From IMG/VR virus record IMGVR_UViG_3300038678_000291, positions 1 through 64,000 of that record: a stretch of DNA of 64,000 nucleotides, one strand, 5' to 3'. The notes under the pieces are model-generated. The model saw only the letters and a list, made by a program, of their open reading frames with translations, had not been told where the DNA came from and ran no database searches. Source of the DNA: a virus. Shown piece by piece: positions 10,579-35,690 of this stretch (position 1 is its first letter; each line of letters opens with the position of its first letter). The translations under genes were made by a program, and so were the position numbers.

Positions 10579-10653
10579 TGGTGGAGACAGAAGGACTCGA
10601 ACCTTCGCACCTCTGCTTATGGGGCAGATGCTCTACCGCTGAGCTATGTCTCC
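10579..10653 (-). tRNA. tRNA with CAT anticodon (elongator Met or Ile2), encoded CCA, C at position 33
   Basis: GGAGACA/TGTCTCC acceptor, GCTC/GAGC D-arm, TCTGC-CCCATAA-GCAGA anticodon arm, GAAGG-TTCGAGT-CCTTC T-arm, ACCA end. Confidence 0.93.
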
Positions 10654-11960: not shown

Positions 11961-12539
11961 TCATGCTATTTTGGTCTCCTGCCCTTTGTATATTATTGGG
12001 CTGGAAACGCCGTTTTCTTGCTTCAGCTTTTCCATTTTTTTCACAAAATCCGTGACTGGTTTTAATCCTACTGGTTCAAGGGGCAGCTCCCCCTGTATCC
12101 TTTCCATCTTCACGGTGATTATCTTACCCGTATTATGAAATAGCCAGCTAGCAAGCTCTTCACTGGTGTTTACATCCTCCAGGGTAAGCTGGAGAATGGC
12201 GACCACTTGATCATCCAGCTTCTTAACGACAACCACGGCTTTAGATAATCGCCTTGCCCCCAAGGGTATCCAATTACCTTCGCCTTCGCCAACCAAGCGA
12301 ATATCGTATACTTCGTTGAGCAACGGAATATTGCTATACTCAACCTTCTTTTCCTCAGCAAATGCAGGGTCAAGAAACCTCTCCAGCCGTATACCCATGT
12401 CGGCCATCTCTGCCGGACAATCATCAATTCTGGTCGCAAAACTAAACTTAGCGGATTTACAAACCGTTCCGCCCTCAATTGTATACTTTCCTAATTCTAC
12501 CTGTAGTTCCATTTCAGCCCTCCTTTTGTTAATATTCAC
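11961..12539 (-). CDS. Hypothetical protein (likely start ATG 12512)
   Basis: Long ORF; AGGAGG RBS before MELQVEL. Confidence 0.6.
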   Translation of the reverse strand: MNINKRRAEMELQVELGKYTIEGGTVCKSAKFSFATRIDDCPAEMADMGIRLERFLDPAFAEEKKVEYSNIPLLNEVYDIRLVGEGEGNWIPLGARRLSKAVVVVKKLDDQVVAILQLTLEDVNTSEELASWLFHNTGKIITVKMERIQGELPLEPVGLKPVTDFVKKMEKLKQENGVSSPIIYKGQETKIA

Positions 12540-12564
12540 AACAATCGACTGCCGCCCTTAGTTA

Positions 12565-13378
12565 ACAGTTGCAACACCTCACATTACTTTACCTCTCCTT
12601 GCTTTTACAATTCGGCACTGCACAACACTTCACTTCACATTGACTTAACCCTACGAAAGCGCATTCTGCCCTCGCTATGCTAAACGGGACCAGACTTTTG
12701 CTCTGCCGCCACAGTACCATACATCGCCAGGCTCTTACTGGACTTATCCTCGCTCTGCACCACCACTACCTCTCCTTACCATACAATACATATACTTTGC
12801 TTAACACTTCTCTGTTGTGCCTCTACCATATCTAACCCTTCTACACACAAACAAAACTAGACCGCTCCCTACATCACAGATACCTTGATCCACCTTGCCG
12901 TGCCCTTGCTTAACGTTTCCATACTAAACAAAACCCCCACGTATCCATACCATACAGCACTCTACGGAACTATACCCTTACCTCGCTGATCTTTGCCCTG
13001 CTGTGACTCTGCTACTCGGTACATCACTGCGCCCCGCCGTTACCTTACCCGACTGCACCTCGCAAATACTCGGCGGTACTCACGCCCAACCAAACCGAAC
13101 CTTACCCGACCTTGCCATCACTTGACTTCACATGACAGCACCGCGCTTTACTTAGACCCTACTCAACAGTACACTACACTTGCCTTACTAGACTTCACTA
13201 CACCGTAACCAAACCACACAGCACACATCAACACCCTGCCTTACCACAACCGTACCTTACCTGTCTGCACTATCACCTTACCTTGCTTTACCTTTCAACA
13301 CCCGACACTAGCTTTGATTTTCCCCACTTGGCCTGACCGTACATTGGCCTTTCTGTACTTTACCGGGCTACCACAAGA
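12565..13378 (-). repeat. Non-coding tandem NGY-NN pentamer array, candidate guide-RNA locus
   Basis: Minus strand parses as GGT-AA AGC-AA GGT-AA GGT-GAT AGT-GC ... GGC-AA GGT-CG GGT-AA GGT-TC GGT-TT GGT-TG ...; roughly 150 units; no credible ORF. Confidence 0.88.
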
Positions 13379-14083
13379 CTATTTTTTGGCATAAACATTG
13401 GTGGTGGTCATTTGGAAATAATCGCTTTTCTCCTTTTTCCAAAGCTCATACGAAAACGATCCATAGCGGGCTGTCCGCCACTGGGCAAGTCCAATGAACT
13501 GTCCATAGAGCAGCAATAGCCTCAATTGCTGTTCGCTGAGCAATCCCAATAATACGGTAATCTCAAGCTCCAATGAGCTTCCGGCCAGAATCTTATCTGA
13601 TCGGGCCACAAAAACCCGGGGGCCCTGCTTGGTTTGCCCGCGGAGGGGTCTTTCCAGGTTCCCGTCAGGCACCTTGATAAAATACCCCTCCCTGCTCTTG
13701 ACATGAAGCCGCCTTGGGCCTACCTGTACCAGGTTTGAGATATGGTGCCGGAGGTTGGTGATCCCTATCCCCTTGTTGGTTTTCAGGGTGTTACCTGCGT
13801 GCTTCAGGTACCCCCTTATCATATAATCATAGAAAAACAGCCCCTTATCGTCCTGGTGAAATCCTGTCCAACCCTTTTCCTCTTCGTTGAACTCCGACAA
13901 TGTATCCGTCTCATTATCCGTGACAGTTTGGGGTTTCTTGCTTTCTATGAACGCCTTGTAGACTTCCGGGTCCTTGGGGGCGGTTCCCAGGACATCCTCC
14001 AAGAAAGTCAATTTGGTGCCATAGACTGCACTGTCGAAAGTCAAGACCGCCGCTTCATCCTTCTTCTTTTTTTTCTCCGTCAT
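13379..14083 (-). CDS. Stand-alone Cas7/RAMP-like protein
   Basis: KLTFLEDVLGT first strand, FFYDYMIRGYLK (compare the Cas7 xxGxxIRGxLR helix), basic thumb ERPLRGQTKQGPR, C-terminal G-loop YGQFIGLAQWRTARYGSF; GGAGG RBS. Confidence 0.75.
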   Translation of the reverse strand: MTEKKKKKDEAAVLTFDSAVYGTKLTFLEDVLGTAPKDPEVYKAFIESKKPQTVTDNETDTLSEFNEEEKGWTGFHQDDKGLFFYDYMIRGYLKHAGNTLKTNKGIGITNLRHHISNLVQVGPRRLHVKSREGYFIKVPDGNLERPLRGQTKQGPRVFVARSDKILAGSSLELEITVLLGLLSEQQLRLLLLYGQFIGLAQWRTARYGSFSYELWKKEKSDYFQMTTTNVYAKK

Positions 14084-14101: not shown

Positions 14102-15445
14102 TTAGTTAATCTTTGTGATCCTGCCACCTTCAATGACGATCCCGACATTGCCGGTCTCGTCAACTACTTCCATTAAGACGGTTAGGTCGTTCTCCCCGGC
14201 GAATTCATCTATAATCTTCATGTTGTCGCTATCCAGTGAGCTTCCCTCGTATATCCGGATCAGGCTTGCTTTTGGATTCATCTTCGCCGATATTGCCAGT
14301 CCAACCTTTATCCTTTCGGATTGGCTGCCCTGTGCCAGGGGTAACCCATTGAATCTGATCCCGGTCTCGTCAACACTTAATCCATGTATGGGGAATTTTG
14401 CCCCTTGCAATGCTCCGTCTTTTTGGTTATCTAGTTCTCCTATGTCATGGGTTAGATTGTTTGAATCATCGTGCAACGATTCAATCACCATTTTTAATGT
14501 AATTCTTTTTGACTGTTGGTTTTGGGCTTCCCTGATTTCCCTGTTCGTTTCCTCCGCCTCTGCTATTTTGAGTCCAATAGCATCGAAATCAGGATCGATT
14601 AAACCATCAAGTTGTTGCTGGAGACTATCCCGTAAGAAACTTTTTTTCTTGAATGATTCTTGTAATCCTGATAATTGTCTTTTATTGTCTTCAATGGCAA
14701 GCTCTAGTTCTACTATCTCGTTTTTAGTGACAGTAATTTCATCGTTATAATGCAGAACATCCTTGTTTGCTGCATCCAAGTCTTTCCGTATCTTGTCGTT
14801 ATTGGTTTTGATTTCTGATGCCTCACCATATTTTTGCGTAAGTTCGATTATACAAACCTCATCAACCAGCAAGTCGGGATTAGGCAGCTCTATCCCCGCC
14901 AACTCACCGTTTTTGTCTTTGGCGTTTCTGTTTACCCGGGTTCTCTCGTCATATAGAACTTGCCTGTCCCGCGCCAATTCATCAAGATCGATTTCCACCC
15001 CGGCCAGCTTCAATAATATATCCCTAGCCTTTTTGGGTTCTTTTAGCATCTTGCGAGTAAACTCAAGTGGATCGATTGTCAATGGCCCCAGTATATTGTC
15101 AAGCATTGTTTTGGGGCTTTTAAACTCAGCCCCATTTTTGCTTGTTAAGATTAGTTTAGATGCAAGCACATCGCCCTTCAGCAGCCAAAATTTCCTGGTG
15201 GCTGTATATCCCTCCATCTCAACTACGACATACCCCTTTTTCTCGCCCCTGCTAATCGGTTCTGCCGGGCAGAGCGCAGTGCCCCCCACTACTATCGCAA
15301 AAAGATCAAGGGCAGTGGACTTCCCGGCATCATTTCTCCCCGATATCTTCACCACGTGTTTGCCTTGCAGGTCAATCTTTACCGCTTTGAGCTGCATGAT
15401 ATTGTGGGCTTCCAGTCCAATAACCCTACCGCCGCCGTCTTTCAT
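14102..15445 (-). CDS. SMC/Rad50-like AAA ATPase with coiled coil
   Basis: GRNDAGKS Walker A, long coiled coil, degenerate signature (QGSQSE) and IRIYEGSSLD. Confidence 0.85.
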   Translation of the reverse strand: MKDGGGRVIGLEAHNIMQLKAVKIDLQGKHVVKISGRNDAGKSTALDLFAIVVGGTALCPAEPISRGEKKGYVVVEMEGYTATRKFWLLKGDVLASKLILTSKNGAEFKSPKTMLDNILGPLTIDPLEFTRKMLKEPKKARDILLKLAGVEIDLDELARDRQVLYDERTRVNRNAKDKNGELAGIELPNPDLLVDEVCIIELTQKYGEASEIKTNNDKIRKDLDAANKDVLHYNDEITVTKNEIVELELAIEDNKRQLSGLQESFKKKSFLRDSLQQQLDGLIDPDFDAIGLKIAEAEETNREIREAQNQQSKRITLKMVIESLHDDSNNLTHDIGELDNQKDGALQGAKFPIHGLSVDETGIRFNGLPLAQGSQSERIKVGLAISAKMNPKASLIRIYEGSSLDSDNMKIIDEFAGENDLTVLMEVVDETGNVGIVIEGGRITKIN

Positions 15446-28311: not shown

Positions 28312-29206
28312 ATGAAATCAATTTATTTCGCTTCCTCTTTTTGGGATGATGACTTTATTTTTGACCTAAGCATTACCGCAAAACTTTTTTATATTTTTTT
28401 AATCACAAACAAAAATGTTTCACCAAGTGGGCTTTATAAATTGGGGAAAATTGAAAAACTAAAAGCTGGATTAACGCAAGCTCAAATCAATAAAGCATTT
28501 CAAGAACTTAATGGTAAGGTATATGTGTTTGGTGAGTGGATTTTTATAAAAAATTTACTTTTTAAGTCGTTTTTAGATAACAGCACAGAAGAAAAATTTC
28601 TAAAATCAAACATTTTTACAATGATAAAAGACCAATTTTCCAAAAATAGTTTTTCGCCAGAACTAATTGAAATATTTCTTAAAACCTATCCTTTCTTTGC
28701 CCCTTATAAGCCCCTTATAAGCCCCTTACTAGCCCCTTATAAGGGGGGGGGGGGGTACCCTTCTCCATACTGATACTGATACTGATACTGATACTGATAC
28801 TGAAAAAGATATTGAAAAAGATATTGCTCAGCGCGATAAAAAGACATCGCTCCAAGCCGAAGCTTCGCAACCTGAAATTATCTTATCAATCCCATTAATC
28901 AAGAGAGATGGTGAATTTCGCATCTATCAGCCAGACATTAATCAATGGCAGGATACTTTTCCCGGTGTGGATGTGAGGCAAAAACTAAGGGAAATTAGGC
29001 AGTGGAACATTGACAACCCAACAAACCGCAAAACTAAAAGCGGTATTTGTAAACATATATCAGTATGGTTGAGCGGGGAGCAAAACAAGATGGGTAATTA
29101 TAAACAACCACAAAAAAAAGATTGGAATGTGAAGGAAAAATTGGCGCAGGCGGAGAGATTTTTAAATCAAGAAGGGGAATATAGCGATGAAGATCAAACA
29201 AATTAA
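28312..29206 (+). CDS. Phage replication initiator, interrupted by a frameshift at a G13 tract
   Basis: N-terminal FW.D...LS..AKLFY.FL.TN domain; iterons; removing one G gives an open frame through TDTDTD into the ..W...NP..RKT..G....I..WL C-terminal domain (297 aa). Confidence 0.8.
28699..28802 (+). repeat. Probable origin: 4 x 11-bp iterons GCCCCTTAYWA, G13, 6 x ATACTG
   Basis: Iterons at 28699, 28710, 28721 and 28732, inside the initiator gene. Confidence 0.8.
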
Positions 29207-32495: not shown

Positions 32496-33101
32496 ATGAT
32501 CACCCATCTTTGCGTCCAAAATCCTGTTGCAGGTGAACTTAAAGGGGTTTGCGTTGTTTGTGGCCAACAAACCCTTACTGGATATAAATTACCTTTTTCG
32601 GATAATTTCACAGGATATTCCTATTTGTCTCATGGGGACTTAACCTGTCCCCGTTGTTATACCTTTTTCAAAACCCCTGAGTTTAGGCGAAAATCATGGA
32701 TAGCTTCTCAAGACGGAGTCCTATATCTGAAGCGCCTTGAATGCAGGCAGCATATTCTTAATCCCCCAACTCCACCGTTTTTTCTTTATATTACCAAAAC
32801 CGGACAAAGACAAGGGTGGTTATCTGCTTTGAAACTTATGAATTATAGTCAAGGCAGATTTTATATTTCAACGGATTGGGTGGGGCATTTTTTGGTTGAA
32901 AGGAGCGAAGCACTGATAATGGCTACTCAAATTGCATTTCTTAGGGAACGGGAAATTTCAAAAACTACTCTTTTAACTGGCAATCCTAGCATGAAACAAT
33001 ATAGGCTTGCCATAGAGGGTGGGTGGGAAGGAGAGTTTGGAAAAATTAGAAAATATGTTAAACAACCACTTTGGGAGGTGATGGTATATGTCTCTGAATG
33101 A
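32496..33101 (+). CDS. csf1: Csf1 (Cas8-like large subunit, type IV)
   Basis: CVVCG...NFT....CPRC Zn finger, L.PP.PPF; first gene of the operon. Confidence 0.72.
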   Translation: MITHLCVQNPVAGELKGVCVVCGQQTLTGYKLPFSDNFTGYSYLSHGDLTCPRCYTFFKTPEFRRKSWIASQDGVLYLKRLECRQHILNPPTPPFFLYITKTGQRQGWLSALKLMNYSQGRFYISTDWVGHFLVERSEALIMATQIAFLREREISKTTLLTGNPSMKQYRLAIEGGWEGEFGKIRKYVKQPLWEVMVYVSE

Positions 33102-33435
33102 GGCACAAGAAAAGGCCCTGGTTGAATTTCTGGCTATAGTTTATGGCCGCATTCCCTGGGGAAAAATGCGGACATCAAAAAACCCCCATGATATTTTCAA
33201 TCATCGGGTGCGGGCAGCTACCAGAAGGGCGACTCTTTATGGGTTTGCCTCAAAACTGTGTAATTATTTTGGGCTTCAAACATTACCCCTTGAGGCTCAA
33301 GCGTTGCTTGATTTGCTGAGGCCAGAGGAGCAGCGAATATTAAGCACCTTATCCTCAGAACATATTCCCTGGTGTGTTAGGGGGATAATCAGATCAAAAG
33401 AGATGAAACTCAAAAACAAGGAGGCCGGCAAATGA
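33088..33435 (+). CDS. Cas11-like small helical subunit
   Basis: 115-aa helical protein between csf1 and csf2. Confidence 0.6.
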   Translation: MSLNEAQEKALVEFLAIVYGRIPWGKMRTSKNPHDIFNHRVRAATRRATLYGFASKLCNYFGLQTLPLEAQALLDLLRPEEQRILSTLSSEHIPWCVRGIIRSKEMKLKNKEAGK

Positions 33436-34268
33436 TTGAGAAATATGATGGCTGGATATTAGCCAAAAGCACCATTCATCATGGCGGGAACGAGAAAACC
33501 GGCAGCACCCCCGTACTTAGAACAATCTATCTGTATGTTGAAGGCCAGGGGGAAATACCCTTCCCATATATCAACGGTAATGCTATTAGAGGTAAACTGC
33601 GAAGGCTGCTGATGCGGGAGTTTTTTCAGCTTATAGGATTAGAGCCGGAAAATCTCAAAACCAAACTATATCATATTTTTTTCACCGGGGGAGTATTAAC
33701 AAGTACCGAATCTTCCTATGCTACAGTGGACTTGGAATTAAGGAAAGAAATCCGTCGGTTGCTACCCCCGCTTGCTTTGCTTGGCGGTGCCATTGGAAAC
33801 CAGATGATACCGGGAAAGCTGAAGGTGGGCCACGCTTTTCCTGTTTGCCAGGAATATGCTCAATATCTTCCTGAAAGGCTAAAAGCAGATAAACGGGTTG
33901 GCATGTCGGTACGAAGCTTCACCGATGAGTCGTTCAATACCAGAAAAGATGATTTGCGGGCAGGTCGGGCAGAAGATGAACAGGCGACCCAAATGAAAAT
34001 AGAGTTTGAATGTTTCATTCCTGGCACAAAATTCTATCACTGGTGGGTGCTGGAGTGGCCCACAGAAATAGAAAAAGCCTGTTTCGGCAGATTGATTGAG
34101 GTCTTTCAATCATCTCCTTTTGTTGGGGGGAAGTTGTCTTCCGGCAACGGAGATGTGATGTTTGAGTATCAACCAAAAACACCTTCAGCACAACCGTATT
34201 TGGAGTTTGTGCTGAAACACAAAACGGACATCCTTCCACTTCTTCAGACCATTGAGGACAAGTTATGA
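33432..34268 (+). CDS. csf2: Csf2 (Cas7-family backbone, type IV)
   Basis: IHHG, P.INGNAIRG.LRR, FFTGG.L, P.ALLGG..GNQM..GKL, TRKDD, QM....E....GT, VGG..S.G.G. Confidence 0.9.
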   Translation: MIEKYDGWILAKSTIHHGGNEKTGSTPVLRTIYLYVEGQGEIPFPYINGNAIRGKLRRLLMREFFQLIGLEPENLKTKLYHIFFTGGVLTSTESSYATVDLELRKEIRRLLPPLALLGGAIGNQMIPGKLKVGHAFPVCQEYAQYLPERLKADKRVGMSVRSFTDESFNTRKDDLRAGRAEDEQATQMKIEFECFIPGTKFYHWWVLEWPTEIEKACFGRLIEVFQSSPFVGGKLSSGNGDVMFEYQPKTPSAQPYLEFVLKHKTDILPLLQTIEDKL

Positions 34269-35005
34269 TTGAGCAAGAAATGACCTATTTCCTTGATTCT
34301 TTCCTTTTGGGGACATCAAGAAGATATAGACCAATGAAATACGAGTCATTAAAAATCACCTTTTGGCTTTCGGCCCCCATATCTCTTACCCACCCCTGGA
34401 TGCACTTTGATGGGCTTATAGGACATCTCTTGACGATAGATGCTCTTGGGCAGGATTTTTATTTACTGCCCAGAAAATTCCCGCTTTCTCGTATGCTTCG
34501 GCAAGTAAAGATTCCACCGTTTCCCATCAAACATACCAGGGGAATGTATCACGCCTCGGCATCCATTTTTGATACCGGCAGGAAGTCTCTTGAAATTATG
34601 TATAAAAAATTTGAGGATCGGTGGGCAGGCGGCAGAAGAAAAGTATCTAAGGGAATGGGATATTTTCGGGACTATATGATCCAACACATCTATATTCCCA
34701 CAAAAACCGTAATATTCTATGTAATGGGAGACAGAAAAACTTTGGAGCAACTTTGTCACTTGGTAACAGGGTTAGGAGACAATACCCGCGTAGGGTGGGG
34801 AGCGGTGAGAAGACATGAGATAGAAGACATGCAACAAGATTGGAGTATTATAAAAAATGGGATTGCTATGCGCCCTATCCCCGAAAAATTGATTGAATAC
34901 ACTTCCTTAAAAGTTGCTGTGGCCTGGAAACCCCCATATTGGGCGCCAGAATGTGTTGGAATATGTGCACCACCTGGTGCAGAGGTGAAACTGAAAAATG
35001 GATAA
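34265..35005 (+). CDS. csf3: Csf3 (Cas5-family, type IV)
   Basis: FDGLI, G.F.DY, FY..GD...L..L....LG.....GWG.V, RPIP, PPYW. Confidence 0.85.
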   Translation: MIEQEMTYFLDSFLLGTSRRYRPMKYESLKITFWLSAPISLTHPWMHFDGLIGHLLTIDALGQDFYLLPRKFPLSRMLRQVKIPPFPIKHTRGMYHASASIFDTGRKSLEIMYKKFEDRWAGGRRKVSKGMGYFRDYMIQHIYIPTKTVIFYVMGDRKTLEQLCHLVTGLGDNTRVGWGAVRRHEIEDMQQDWSIIKNGIAMRPIPEKLIEYTSLKVAVAWKPPYWAPECVGICAPPGAEVKLKNG

Positions 35006-35690
35006 ACAGTGGAGGGAAACATTTTTGCTTCATGCCAGAAGCGAAGAATATATCCAAAAAATTCAGGAAGCAGAGTACAATATTTTAACTACCCTTCTGC
35101 GATATAAAAAACCCTATGTGGCCTTTTCTGGGGGTAAGGATTCAACCTGTATGTTACATTTAGTATTGCAGCAAGCTTTAAATACGATGATTTTACATTG
35201 GGATTATGGCAGATTTTATATTCCTTACTACCTACACAACGAATTAATAGAAAACGCACGCAGATGTGGAGCAAAAAATCTTCGGATAGAAACATCTAGT
35301 CTATATGAAAAACTTGGCCGAAAGGCAATTAATGTATTGGGTAAAGAAATGATGGAAAAACTTATCCCTCAACTGATAAAAGAAGGCTACGATGTTGTTT
35401 TTGTTGGCTTACGAATACAAGAATCAGTTAAACGGAAACTAAGAATCAAAGCAGGGAGAAGCCTTACAAATATTTTTGAAGTATGGCCATTAAAAAACTG
35501 GTCATGGCTTGATGTATGGGCATATATCATCTCCAGTAAAATTCCTTATCTTTCTTATTATGATAAATATGCTCCTGTTGTGGGATGGGATAAAGCTAGG
35601 TTCACTACTTTGTTTGATCCCGAATTTGATAAATTTGGCTGTTCTAATGTTGATGGAATATTGTCTTGGAAATATAGGAATTTAATATGA
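34998..35690 (+). CDS. CysH/PAPS-reductase-like protein (type IV-B accessory)
   Basis: AFSGGKDS PP-loop, GLR..ES..R, PL..WS..DVWAYI....IPY...Y. Confidence 0.9.
   Translation: MDKQWRETFLLHARSEEYIQKIQEAEYNILTTLLRYKKPYVAFSGGKDSTCMLHLVLQQALNTMILHWDYGRFYIPYYLHNELIENARRCGAKNLRIETSSLYEKLGRKAINVLGKEMMEKLIPQLIKEGYDVVFVGLRIQESVKRKLRIKAGRSLTNIFEVWPLKNWSWLDVWAYIISSKIPYLSYYDKYAPVVGWDKARFTTLFDPEFDKFGCSNVDGILSWKYRNLI

What the first reader, a model, noticed from the sequence alone, without database searches (positions are those of the whole stretch)
12565..13378. Internal grammar of the array: 6-nt units punctuate the pentamer runs
Seen: the 5-nt register slips by one extra base roughly every 4-8 units (GGT-GAT, GGT-TGT, GGT-TAC, GGT-CTA, AGT-GAT, GGC-GTG, GGT-AAC, AGT-CAC, GGT-AAG, AGC-AAG...). 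This gives segments of about 20-40 nt. Only the middle G of the triplet is nearly invariant, the third base is mostly T/C and the first is free. I see no long segment repeated exactly, so it is not a simple microsatellite expansion. Inference: the 6-mers may mark guide boundaries, processing sites or kinks in the protein filament, so the locus could encode a couple of dozen distinct guides.
Basis: partly seen in the sequence, partly recalled or inferred. Interest (0 to 1): 0.7.

Follow-up and report, generated by a model that had tools for sequence, protein, structure and literature searches.

The report
Register breaks in phage VIPR array
The stretch is the guide-RNA array of a phage VIPR system, a CRISPR-like system first described in 2026, and its occasional 6-letter units are regularly spaced register shifts that cut about 160 five-letter repeats into about 28 short runs, a layout the VIPR authors mention only briefly as "staggered arrays".

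Summary
On the minus strand, 12565-13381 is about 160 units of N-R-G-Y-N(N): 129 five-mers, 31 six-mers, and no 4- or 7-mers. The central G is 95% conserved. Six-mers recur every 5-8 units, giving runs of 26-41 nt. This is far from geometric spacing (permutation P<1e-5).

The upstream gene (13379-14083, minus strand) folds as a Cas7-type RAMP. Its family profile hits only the published vipr gene in the phage SUSP1 genome. At least 548 IMG/VR relatives exist. In about 75 of the 80 loci fetched, the same kind of array starts just after the gene's stop codon, with a mean period of 5.17 ± 0.03 nt.

This is therefore a VIPR system (Vipr protein plus vrRNA; three 2026 bioRxiv preprints). It has a relaxed first G and a long, tail-less "staggered" array. 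The scan has noted VIPR on other DNA many times (447 notes).

In 27 of 28 non-redundant relatives the 6-nt step has its own motif, G-Y-A-A-N-G-G, and its extra G evolves slowly. A 249-nt deletion removes exactly nine runs, with both ends in this motif. The window's own array lacks the motif.

Best reading (about 0.55): the +1 shifts end one Vipr mini-filament or guide module and start the next. This is not shown, because no RNA data and no targets were found. It is a new member of a known kind and of modest interest.

The parts
13379..14083 (-). vipr gene: a 234-aa stand-alone RAMP (Cas7-like) protein, with its TAG stop at 13379-13381
   Evidence: The AlphaFold2 model has pLDDT 85. Foldseek against the PDB gives more than 100 hits at E<1e-3; every hit listed in the output is a Cas7-type or other RAMP subunit (type VII Cas7, Csm3, Cmr1, Cas7-11, type IV-A), with TM 0.34-0.50. 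The protein has no Pfam, PHROG or NCBIfam family. The family profile A1 gives one hit in the six-frame SUSP1 genome, at 28489-28830(-), inside the published vipr gene (E 3.6e-4). hhalign to that protein gives 87% probability over the G-loop.
12565..13381 (-). vrRNA array: about 157 pentamer-type units Y-N-N-R-G (written N-R-G-Y-N in the segmentation), divided into about 28 runs by 6-nt steps. It starts at the vipr stop codon and ends about 50 nt before the ATG of the next gene (12512).
   Evidence: It is the only such array in the 83-kb virus record. No real ORF is present. No convincing promoter or terminator lies between vipr and the array.
12569..13376 (-). The 28 six-nt steps (register shifts). 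Each six-mer is given as first-last base in window coordinates, read on the minus strand: 13376-13371, 13350-45, 13314-09, 13278-73, 13252-47, 13211-06, 13185-80, 13159-54, 13123-18, 13087-82, 13071-66, 13045-40, 13009-04, 12983-78, 12942-37, 12911-06, 12885-80, 12854-49, 12828-23, 12797-92, 12771-66, 12740-35, 12714-09, 12703-698, 12677-72, 12646-41, 12610-05, 12574-69.
   Evidence: Positions come from the Viterbi segmentation.

Best explanation
What it is. The locus is a phage VIPR system. The gene at 13379-14083(-) encodes a Vipr protein, a small ancestral RAMP related to Cas7. The 0.8-kb tract after its stop codon is transcribed with it as vrRNA.

How the published systems work. According to the 2026 preprints, one Vipr protomer binds each pentamer. 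It buries G1-G2-Y3 and exposes the variable bases, which pair with double-stranded DNA. The protomers form a helical filament with 6 subunits per turn when free and 5 per turn when DNA-bound.

How this clade differs. G2 and Y3 are fixed but G1 is relaxed, so the unit is R-G-Y rather than G-G-Y.

What the 6-nt steps do. They are +1 register shifts. Because filament growth needs scaffold motifs exactly 5 nt apart, each shift ends one filament and starts the next. The transcript is thereby divided into about 28 modules of 5-8 protomers, roughly one helical turn each. Each module is a short vrRNA guide, either cut at the exposed junction or acting while still joined.

Shown versus inferred. Shown here: the grammar and its non-randomness, the RAMP fold, homology to SUSP1 Vipr, and conservation of the gene-plus-array module and of a junction motif in relatives. 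Inferred: transcription, one protomer per unit, filament termination at the shifts, cleavage, and guide function of single runs.

Sub-claim confidences. It is a VIPR array: about 0.9. The six-mers are non-random punctuation: about 0.99. They delimit separately acting modules: about 0.55.
For: Protein. It has a RAMP fold. The profile hits only the vipr gene in SUSP1. The G-loop alignment puts window W202 and R203 on SUSP1 W178 and R179. In the cryo-EM preprint these are the G2-stacking and Y3 cation-pi residues. The G1-binding D177 is replaced by Q201, which is invariant in this clade. That matches the fixed G2 and Y3 and the relaxed G1 seen in the array.

Module conservation. At least 548 relatives exist in IMG/VR. 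In about 75 of 80 fetched loci a G-rich array on the gene strand starts just after the gene's stop codon, with 28-163 units. Across 67 non-identical arrays the period has median 5.168 and sd 0.030. No flanking gene is conserved.

Punctuation. Pooled gaps between six-mers peak at 5, 6 and 7 units (217, 220 and 139 cases), where a geometric distribution predicts 64, 53 and 43.

Junction motif. In 27 of 28 non-redundant arrays the base before the next invariant G is G in 60-100% of 6-nt steps. After 5-nt steps it is G in 7-52%. That G shows 3.3% substitutions, against 11.9% at the matching base of five-mers.

Deletions. A 249-nt deletion (L069 versus L075) removes exactly 39 five-mers and 9 six-mers between two copies of the junction motif. 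A 21-nt deletion removes one whole run.

Turnover. Arrays diverge far faster than the gene: about 50-65% array identity at about 95% gene identity.

Literature. The preprints describe pentamer vrRNAs, variant scaffolds (NNNGG, YNNNG, NNNNG) and 'staggered arrays'. They also report 6 and 5 protomers per helical turn.
Against: The window's own junctions show no GG enrichment: 39% after 6-nt steps against 42% after 5-nt steps.

Runs of 5-8 units hold only 10-16 NN bases. In a 1.6-Mb local test set, 118 of 290 runs found a perfect match by chance under the published 1-nt-skip rule, and so did 129 of 290 scrambled controls. A single run read that way would therefore be unspecific in a bacterial genome.

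Near-identical arrays differ by 5-, 10- and 20-nt unit slippage inside runs. This sits uneasily with each run being a finely tuned guide.

No structured 3' tail like that of SUSP1 vrRNAs was found.

The preprint states that only the ribozyme-interspersed and single-vrRNA architectures were confirmed by small-RNA sequencing, not the staggered one.
Confidence: 0.55

Rival explanations
1. Vernier or 'leap-unit' model. The array is one long unprocessed scaffold coated by a continuous Vipr filament. The extra nucleotide, about one per helical turn, only keeps the G lattice in register with a physical repeat slightly longer than 5 nt. It would act as strain relief and not as a boundary.
For: The invariant G sits on a line of slope 5.177 nt with a residual sd of 0.46 nt. 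Ideal rounding gives 0.29 and shuffled unit order gives 1.25. The mean period is conserved (5.166 ± 0.030) across arrays whose proteins are only 35-50% identical to the window's. The spacing of 5-7 units equals the published 5-6 protomers per turn. The window's junctions have no special sequence.
Against: The validated SUSP1 vrRNAs keep a strict 5-nt register for 12 and 16 units with no six-mer, and all 12 protomers were resolved on one. The protein lattice therefore fits exactly 5 nt per unit. A helically symmetric filament gives no reason for one odd subunit per turn. Successive gaps show no compensation: mean lag-1 correlation is +0.02 over 28 arrays, although that test has little power. 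The model does not predict the conserved G-Y-A-A-N-G-G motif in 27 of 28 relatives or deletion ends falling in it.
Confidence: 0.2
2. The six-mers are information and not punctuation. They would be units with three variable bases (Y-N-N-N-R-G) that read one more target base or shift the reading frame on the target, within guides that span several runs.
For: In this clade the base before the invariant G is the fastest-evolving position of five-mers (11.9%). More than two bases per unit may therefore carry specificity. The preprint lists YNNNG and NNNNG scaffolds whose pairing rule is not given. Single runs are too short to be specific under the NN rule.
Against: In relatives the interior of the six-mer is less variable, not more: it is A-rich at +2 and +3 and has G at +5 in 87% of cases. 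The regular spacing of 5-7 units is unexplained. Unit indels would break any long guide. No multi-run target was found locally under the four rules tried, but that test set was very small.
Confidence: 0.12
3. Degenerate microsatellite. A 5-nt repeat is decaying by random 1-nt indels and has no function in the six-mers. A variant of this idea is a feature of double-stranded DNA with a half-helical-turn period of 10.35 bp.
For: Replication slippage of whole units does occur. Twice 5.18 is close to the DNA helical repeat.
Against: Only +1 steps occur, never -1 or +2. The spacing is far from geometric. The array always lies on the gene strand directly after the stop codon in phages whose proteins are only 35-50% identical to the window's. 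Homologous arrays are expressed as RNA and co-purify with Vipr in the published systems.
Confidence: 0.03

Closest known systems
VIPR systems with 'staggered' vrRNA arrays (bioRxiv 10.64898/2026.04.26.720920, text and Fig. S18 legend)
   Same: A lone phage-encoded RAMP sits next to a long tract of pentamer repeats. Consecutive pentamer series abut with a 1-nt offset. There is no CRISPR array and there are no other cas genes beside it.
   Different: I could read only the legend, because the figure is not held. The preprint gives no spacing statistics, no junction motif and no RNA confirmation for this architecture. Here the runs are 5-8 units, whereas the preprint's stated guide size is 9-16 repeats. 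I could not assign the window's system to a type (I-VII).
Type II VIPR of Escherichia phage SUSP1 (KT454805; vipr 28474-29061, minus strand), the experimentally and structurally characterised reference
   Same: The proteins are homologous. Both have pentamer repeats with a G followed by a pyrimidine. In both, arrays flank the gene on its own strand.
   Different: SUSP1 has four separate vrRNAs of about 100 nt. Each has 9-16 units in strict 5-nt register and a structured 3' tail with a pseudoknot, and a vap gene lies alongside. The window has one tract of about 160 units, 6-nt steps, no tail, a relaxed G1 (41% G) with Gln in place of the G1-binding Asp, and no conserved accessory gene.
Class 1 CRISPR Cas7 backbone on crRNA (Csm3, Cmr4, type VII Cas7)
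   Same: These are the best structural matches of the protein. They too have one protomer per fixed number of guide nucleotides and a thumb that interrupts pairing periodically.
   Different: Their period is 6 nt with one flipped base and no sequence requirement in the spacer. Their guides are delimited by CRISPR repeats and cut by Cas6 or Cas5. Here the period is 5 nt with a sequence-coded scaffold, and the boundaries are a single extra base.
Type IV-B CRISPR-Cas (Csf1/Cas11/Csf2/Csf3/CysH), present in the same phage at 32496-35690(+)
   Same: It is array-less, is carried by mobile elements, has a Cas7-type filament, and assembles on non-CRISPR RNA in the published structure.
   Different: It is not a partner of this array. 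A Csf2-like protein was found in 0 of 28 other Vipr-bearing virus records, 15 of which are at least 90% complete. It lies 19 kb away on the other strand.

Membership tests
VIPR (Vipr + vrRNA) | Vipr protein: a small single-RRM RAMP with a G-loop and a thumb, related to Cas5/6/7 | tested here: met
   AF2 model pLDDT 85. All Foldseek PDB hits listed in the output are Cas7-type or other RAMP subunits. The C-terminal Gly-rich motif G-x-x-x-G-L-G-Q-F/W-R-x-G is conserved. The protein is 234 aa.
VIPR (Vipr + vrRNA) | Sequence homology to an experimentally validated Vipr (SUSP1) | tested here: met
   Profile A1 gives a single six-frame hit in the 90.7-kb SUSP1 genome, inside the vipr gene (E 3.6e-4, profile positions 84-192 of 195). 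hhalign gives 87% probability and E 3.8e-6 over the G-loop. The match is weak but specific.
VIPR (Vipr + vrRNA) | Adjacent tandem pentanucleotide array of GGY/NN or a related consensus (NNNGG, YNNNG, NNNNG) | tested here: met
   About 160 units. G2 is 95% conserved and Y3 is 90% pyrimidine. G1 is relaxed (G 41%, A 34%). The same module is present in about 75 of 80 relatives.
VIPR (Vipr + vrRNA) | The array is expressed as small RNA that co-purifies with Vipr | not testable with these tools
VIPR (Vipr + vrRNA) | Variable bases match natural DNA targets under the 1-nt-skip rule | tested here: inconclusive
   Only a local 1.6-Mb set could be searched. Real runs matched no better than scrambled controls under four rules.
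VIPR (Vipr + vrRNA) | An accessory vap gene next to vipr (typical, type-dependent) | tested here: inconclusive
   The window's flanking genes (AAA_23 ATPase and a 183-aa protein) have no homologue in the 80 loci, and no downstream family recurs there.
Type II VIPR (SUSP1-like) | Discrete vrRNAs of 9-16 units in strict register, each capped by a conserved structured 3' tail | tested here: not met
   The runs are 5-8 units separated by a single extra base. No conserved hairpin or tail occurs inside or after the arrays.
VIPR 'staggered array' architecture | Consecutive vrRNAs abut or overlap by 1 nt, so the end of one marks the start of the next | tested here: met
   +1 register shifts occur every 5-8 units. 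In 27 of 28 relatives the junction is a GG doublet. Its first G is in register with the upstream run and its second G with the downstream run. The window itself shows the shift but not the GG enrichment. Processing at these points is untested.
CRISPR-Cas (any type) array | Direct repeats of 20-40 nt separated by unique spacers, with cas genes for adaptation or processing | tested here: not met
   Tandem Repeats Finder reports no repeated segment. No cas1, cas2 or cas6 was seen beside it (ORFs, family scans). The type IV-B operon elsewhere in the window is not linked to it.

The most novel reading that the evidence does not exclude
In this Vipr clade the 0.8-kb transcript may not be cut into guides. 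It may instead form one very long filament or a chain of one-turn Vipr rings. In that case the extra nucleotide per helical turn would be a structural requirement, and neighbouring runs would act together on DNA. This would be a mode of VIPR action, and a role for the array, that the preprints do not describe.
Probability: 0.12. Interest if true: 0.6.

Novelty: new member of a known kind. Interest (0 to 1): 0.35.

Why it matters
VIPR is a months-old class of RNA-guided DNA-binding systems, proposed to be older than CRISPR. All experimental work so far is on type II systems, which have discrete tailed guides.

The clade seen here is large, with at least 548 relatives in IMG/VR. It uses a different way to separate guides: a single extra base, with no repeat, ribozyme or tail.

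The rules measured here give concrete, testable predictions for how such arrays are parsed, and they would improve the calling of vrRNAs in genomes. The rules are:
- only +1 steps occur;
- runs are 5-7 units, about one helical turn;
- the junction motif is G-Y-A-A-N-G-G;
- G1 is relaxed, together with an Asp-to-Gln change in the G-loop;
- small changes are unit slippage, while large deletions remove whole runs.

The results also raise an open point. Runs this short carry too little information under the published NN rule.

Otherwise the finding is another instance of a known system that this scan has met many times.

Tried and rejected
1. Rigid non-integer lattice. I first read the sharp 5.18-nt peak as a physical repeat or half a DNA turn. 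Permuting the order of gaps showed no compensation between successive gaps: mean lag-1 r is +0.02, and the Fisher P values are 0.16 and 0.74. A narrow gap distribution alone explains the coherence. The strict 5-nt register in SUSP1 argues against the lattice. It is kept only as a rival.

2. Type IV-B partnership. The operon at 32496-35690 is real, though its family hits are below threshold. A Csf2-like protein is absent from 28 other Vipr-bearing records.

3. Conserved accessory genes. None was found.

4. Rfam. There is no family in the array; the only gathering-level hit is a tRNA at 10582-10653.

5. Structured 3' tail. There is no consistent structure after the arrays.

6. Target search. Four pairing rules were run on the local data (own 83-kb genome, 80 loci, SUSP1). 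Real guides scored the same as scrambled guides.

7. RNA evidence. No RNA holder is listed for the stretch. The only holder is a marine-sediment DNA run that may be the source sample.

9. tblastn of the protein against GenBank phages found only 4 uncultured gut phages. SUSP1 was reached by accession instead.

Full report
OBSERVATION

The tract between two minus-strand genes has no real ORF. On the minus strand it is G-rich and C-poor: 307 G and 103 C in 839 nt. Its base-composition spectrum has one sharp peak at 5.179 nt, with power 24.5 against a mean of 0.72, plus the second harmonic of that peak. In a sliding scan of the whole 64-kb window, the 16 strongest 300-nt windows all lie in 12501-13550. 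Each has a local period of 5.14-5.22, and nothing elsewhere exceeds 3.9.

A Viterbi-trained model that allowed 4-, 5-, 6- and 7-nt units gave 160 units. Of these, 129 are five-mers and 31 are six-mers; there are no 4-mers or 7-mers. The consensus is N-R-G-Y-N(N). The G is 153/160. The next base is T 106, C 38, A 16. The preceding base is G 66, A 54, T 32, C 8.

Six-mers recur every 5-8 units. The run lengths are 26 nt x11, 36 x7, 31 x5 and 41 x2. None of 100,000 shuffles of unit order gave so small a spread. Tandem Repeats Finder sees no repeated long segment. The last three six-mers called at 12546-12563 lie past the real end of the array.

WHAT IT IS

The gene directly upstream on the transcribed strand (13379-14083) has no Pfam, PHROG or NCBIfam family. 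It has at least 88 relatives at E<=1e-3 in the large protein set. Its AlphaFold2 model (pLDDT 85) matches more than 100 PDB chains at E<1e-3. Every chain listed in the output is a Cas7-type or other RAMP subunit.

A literature search then found that this gene-plus-array module was described in 2026 as VIPR (read). Its parts are as follows:
- Vipr is a small phage-encoded RAMP.
- vrRNAs are tandem Y-N-N-G-G repeats.
- One protomer binds each repeat. It buries G1, G2 and Y3 and exposes N-N.
- The exposed N-N pairs with double-stranded DNA, skipping every third target base.

I located the reference system in phage SUSP1 (KT454805). Its vipr gene is at 28474-29061(-), and its vrRNAs have 12 and 16 units in strict 5-nt register followed by a hairpin tail. 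The profile of the window's family hits the SUSP1 genome once, inside that gene (E 3.6e-4). hhalign aligns the G-loops (87% probability).

In that alignment, window W202 and R203 fall on SUSP1 W178 and R179. The cryo-EM preprint describes these as stacking on G2 and holding Y3. D177, which reads G1, is replaced by Q201, which is invariant in this clade. That fits the array: G2 and Y3 are fixed and G1 is relaxed. The residue mapping is an inference from a 45-column alignment.

THE MODULE IS CONSERVED AND ITS NEIGHBOURS ARE NOT

IMG/VR holds at least 548 relatives. In about 75 of the 80 loci fetched, an array on the gene strand starts just after the gene's stop codon. These arrays have 28-163 units, almost only 5- and 6-mers, and a residual of 0.3-0.9 nt from a straight line. 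Across 67 non-identical arrays the period is 5.166 ± 0.030.

None of the window's flanking genes recurs in those loci, and no downstream family is shared. The type IV-B-like operon at 32496-35690 gives sub-threshold Csf1, Csf2 and Csf3 hits and a PAPS-reductase hit above the Pfam cut-off. It is not a partner of the array: no Csf2-like protein was found in 28 other Vipr-bearing records.

THE SIX-MERS

Spacing. Pooled over arrays, gaps between six-mers peak at 5, 6 and 7 units. A geometric distribution would peak at 1.

The lattice idea. I first took the coherent 5.18-nt period for a rigid non-integer lattice. Permuting the order of the gaps within each of 28 non-redundant arrays showed no compensation (mean lag-1 r +0.02). 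The coherence follows simply from the narrow gap distribution. That test has little power, because one unit of gap changes the phase by only 0.18 nt.

Junction motif. In 27 of 28 non-redundant arrays the 6-nt step has its own consensus, G-Y-A-A-N-G-G. The base before the next invariant G is G in 60-100% of such steps, against 7-52% after 5-nt steps. The doublet's first G is in register with the upstream run and its second G with the downstream run. This matches the preprint's description of staggered arrays as '1 nt overlapping positions'.

Conservation. Between close relatives this extra G changes in 3.3% of comparisons. The equivalent base of five-mers changes in 11.9%, and the invariant G in 1.3%.

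The window is the exception. Its junctions are no richer in G than its ordinary units: 39% against 42%.

EVOLUTION

Arrays turn over much faster than the gene, with about 50-65% array identity at about 95% gene identity. Clean indels between near-identical arrays measure 5, 5, 10, 20, 21 and 249 nt, so the unit register is always kept.

The small events are slippage of whole five-mers inside runs. The 21-nt event removes one run. The 249-nt event removes exactly 39 five-mers and 9 six-mers, between two copies of the junction motif. Breakpoints of the larger events therefore coincide with the six-mers, while the small ones do not.

MECHANISM

Best reading. Each +1 shift breaks the 5-nt lattice on which Vipr polymerises. 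The transcript is thus parsed into about 28 modules of 5-8 protomers. This is close to the 6 (free) or 5 (DNA-bound) protomers per helical turn seen by cryo-EM, so each module may be the smallest filament that can enclose DNA. The junctions may also be cleavage sites.

Points against. The window lacks the junction motif. Unit slippage occurs inside runs. The runs are short: under the published NN rule, 118 of 290 runs found a perfect match by chance in only 1.6 Mb, as did 129 of 290 scrambled controls. Either more positions are read in this clade, where the G1 position is the most variable, or the runs cooperate.

Untested. There are no RNA data and no targets, and the preprint did not confirm staggered arrays by RNA sequencing.

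Rivals. The rivals are a continuous filament with one relief nucleotide per turn, six-mers as three-base guide words, and random decay or a DNA-level periodicity. They are weighed in the rival explanations given with this report. The last is excluded by the statistics and by the fixed strand and position of the array.

NOVELTY

The class is known from three 2026 preprints, and this scan has noted it 447 times in at least 338 genomes. Variant scaffolds and staggered arrays are mentioned in print.

I did not find the following in the text held for the three preprints:
- the spacing statistics;
- the junction motif and its conservation;
- the link between relaxed G1 and the Asp-to-Gln change;
- the two modes of indel.

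The figures and data tables could not be read, because no supplementary files are held. My verdict is a new member of a known kind, with modest added detail.

TOOLS THAT WERE CLOSED

Noticed in passing
window 32496-35690 (+): A divergent type IV-B-like operon. It gives sub-threshold NCBIfam hits to Csf1 (3e-7), Csf2 (1e-13) and Csf3 (1.5e-16), has a 115-aa ORF in the cas11 position, and has a PAPS-reductase/CysH-like gene (Pfam 7.7e-17). The same phage therefore carries two RAMP-based systems. Csf2 is absent from 28 other Vipr-bearing virus records.
   Followed up: partly
L041:629-924 (+): This relative has a second pentamer array about 3 kb upstream of its vipr gene, with a period of 4.92. 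It has 56 five-mers, 4 four-mers and no six-mers, so its register shifts by -1 instead of +1.
   Followed up: no
L005:3432-3881, L007:3712-3881, L013:3778-3942: Some relatives carry an array upstream of vipr on the same strand. L005 and L013 have it as well as a downstream array; in L007 it was the only array called.
   Followed up: no
window 12993-13208 (+) and 12677-12835 (+); many loci (cluster c1): The C-poor array leaves long open frames on the opposite strand, so ORF callers place spurious 50-390-aa 'genes' antisense to vipr and the array. This is an annotation pitfall.
   Followed up: no
window 14102-15445 (-): A 447-aa SMC/SbcC-like ATPase (AAA_23, phrog_1499, E 2e-66) lies directly upstream of vipr. 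It is not conserved next to vipr in the 80 relatives, so it is probably not an accessory (vap) gene.
   Followed up: partly
window 11961-12512 (-): A 183-aa protein with its own ribosome-binding site follows the array with no terminator. It has no family, only a weak MerR_2 helix-turn-helix hit (E 0.004). It could be a DNA-binding accessory protein, but it has no homologue in the related loci.
   Followed up: partly
window 10582-10653 (-): A tRNA gene (Rfam 71 bits) sits in the early region of the phage.
   Followed up: no
L020 and L021 (one 150-kb IMG/VR contig with inverted terminal repeats): The vipr-plus-array module is present twice in one record, in opposite orientation. In these copies the array starts about 640 nt after the gene rather than directly after it.
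   Followed up: no
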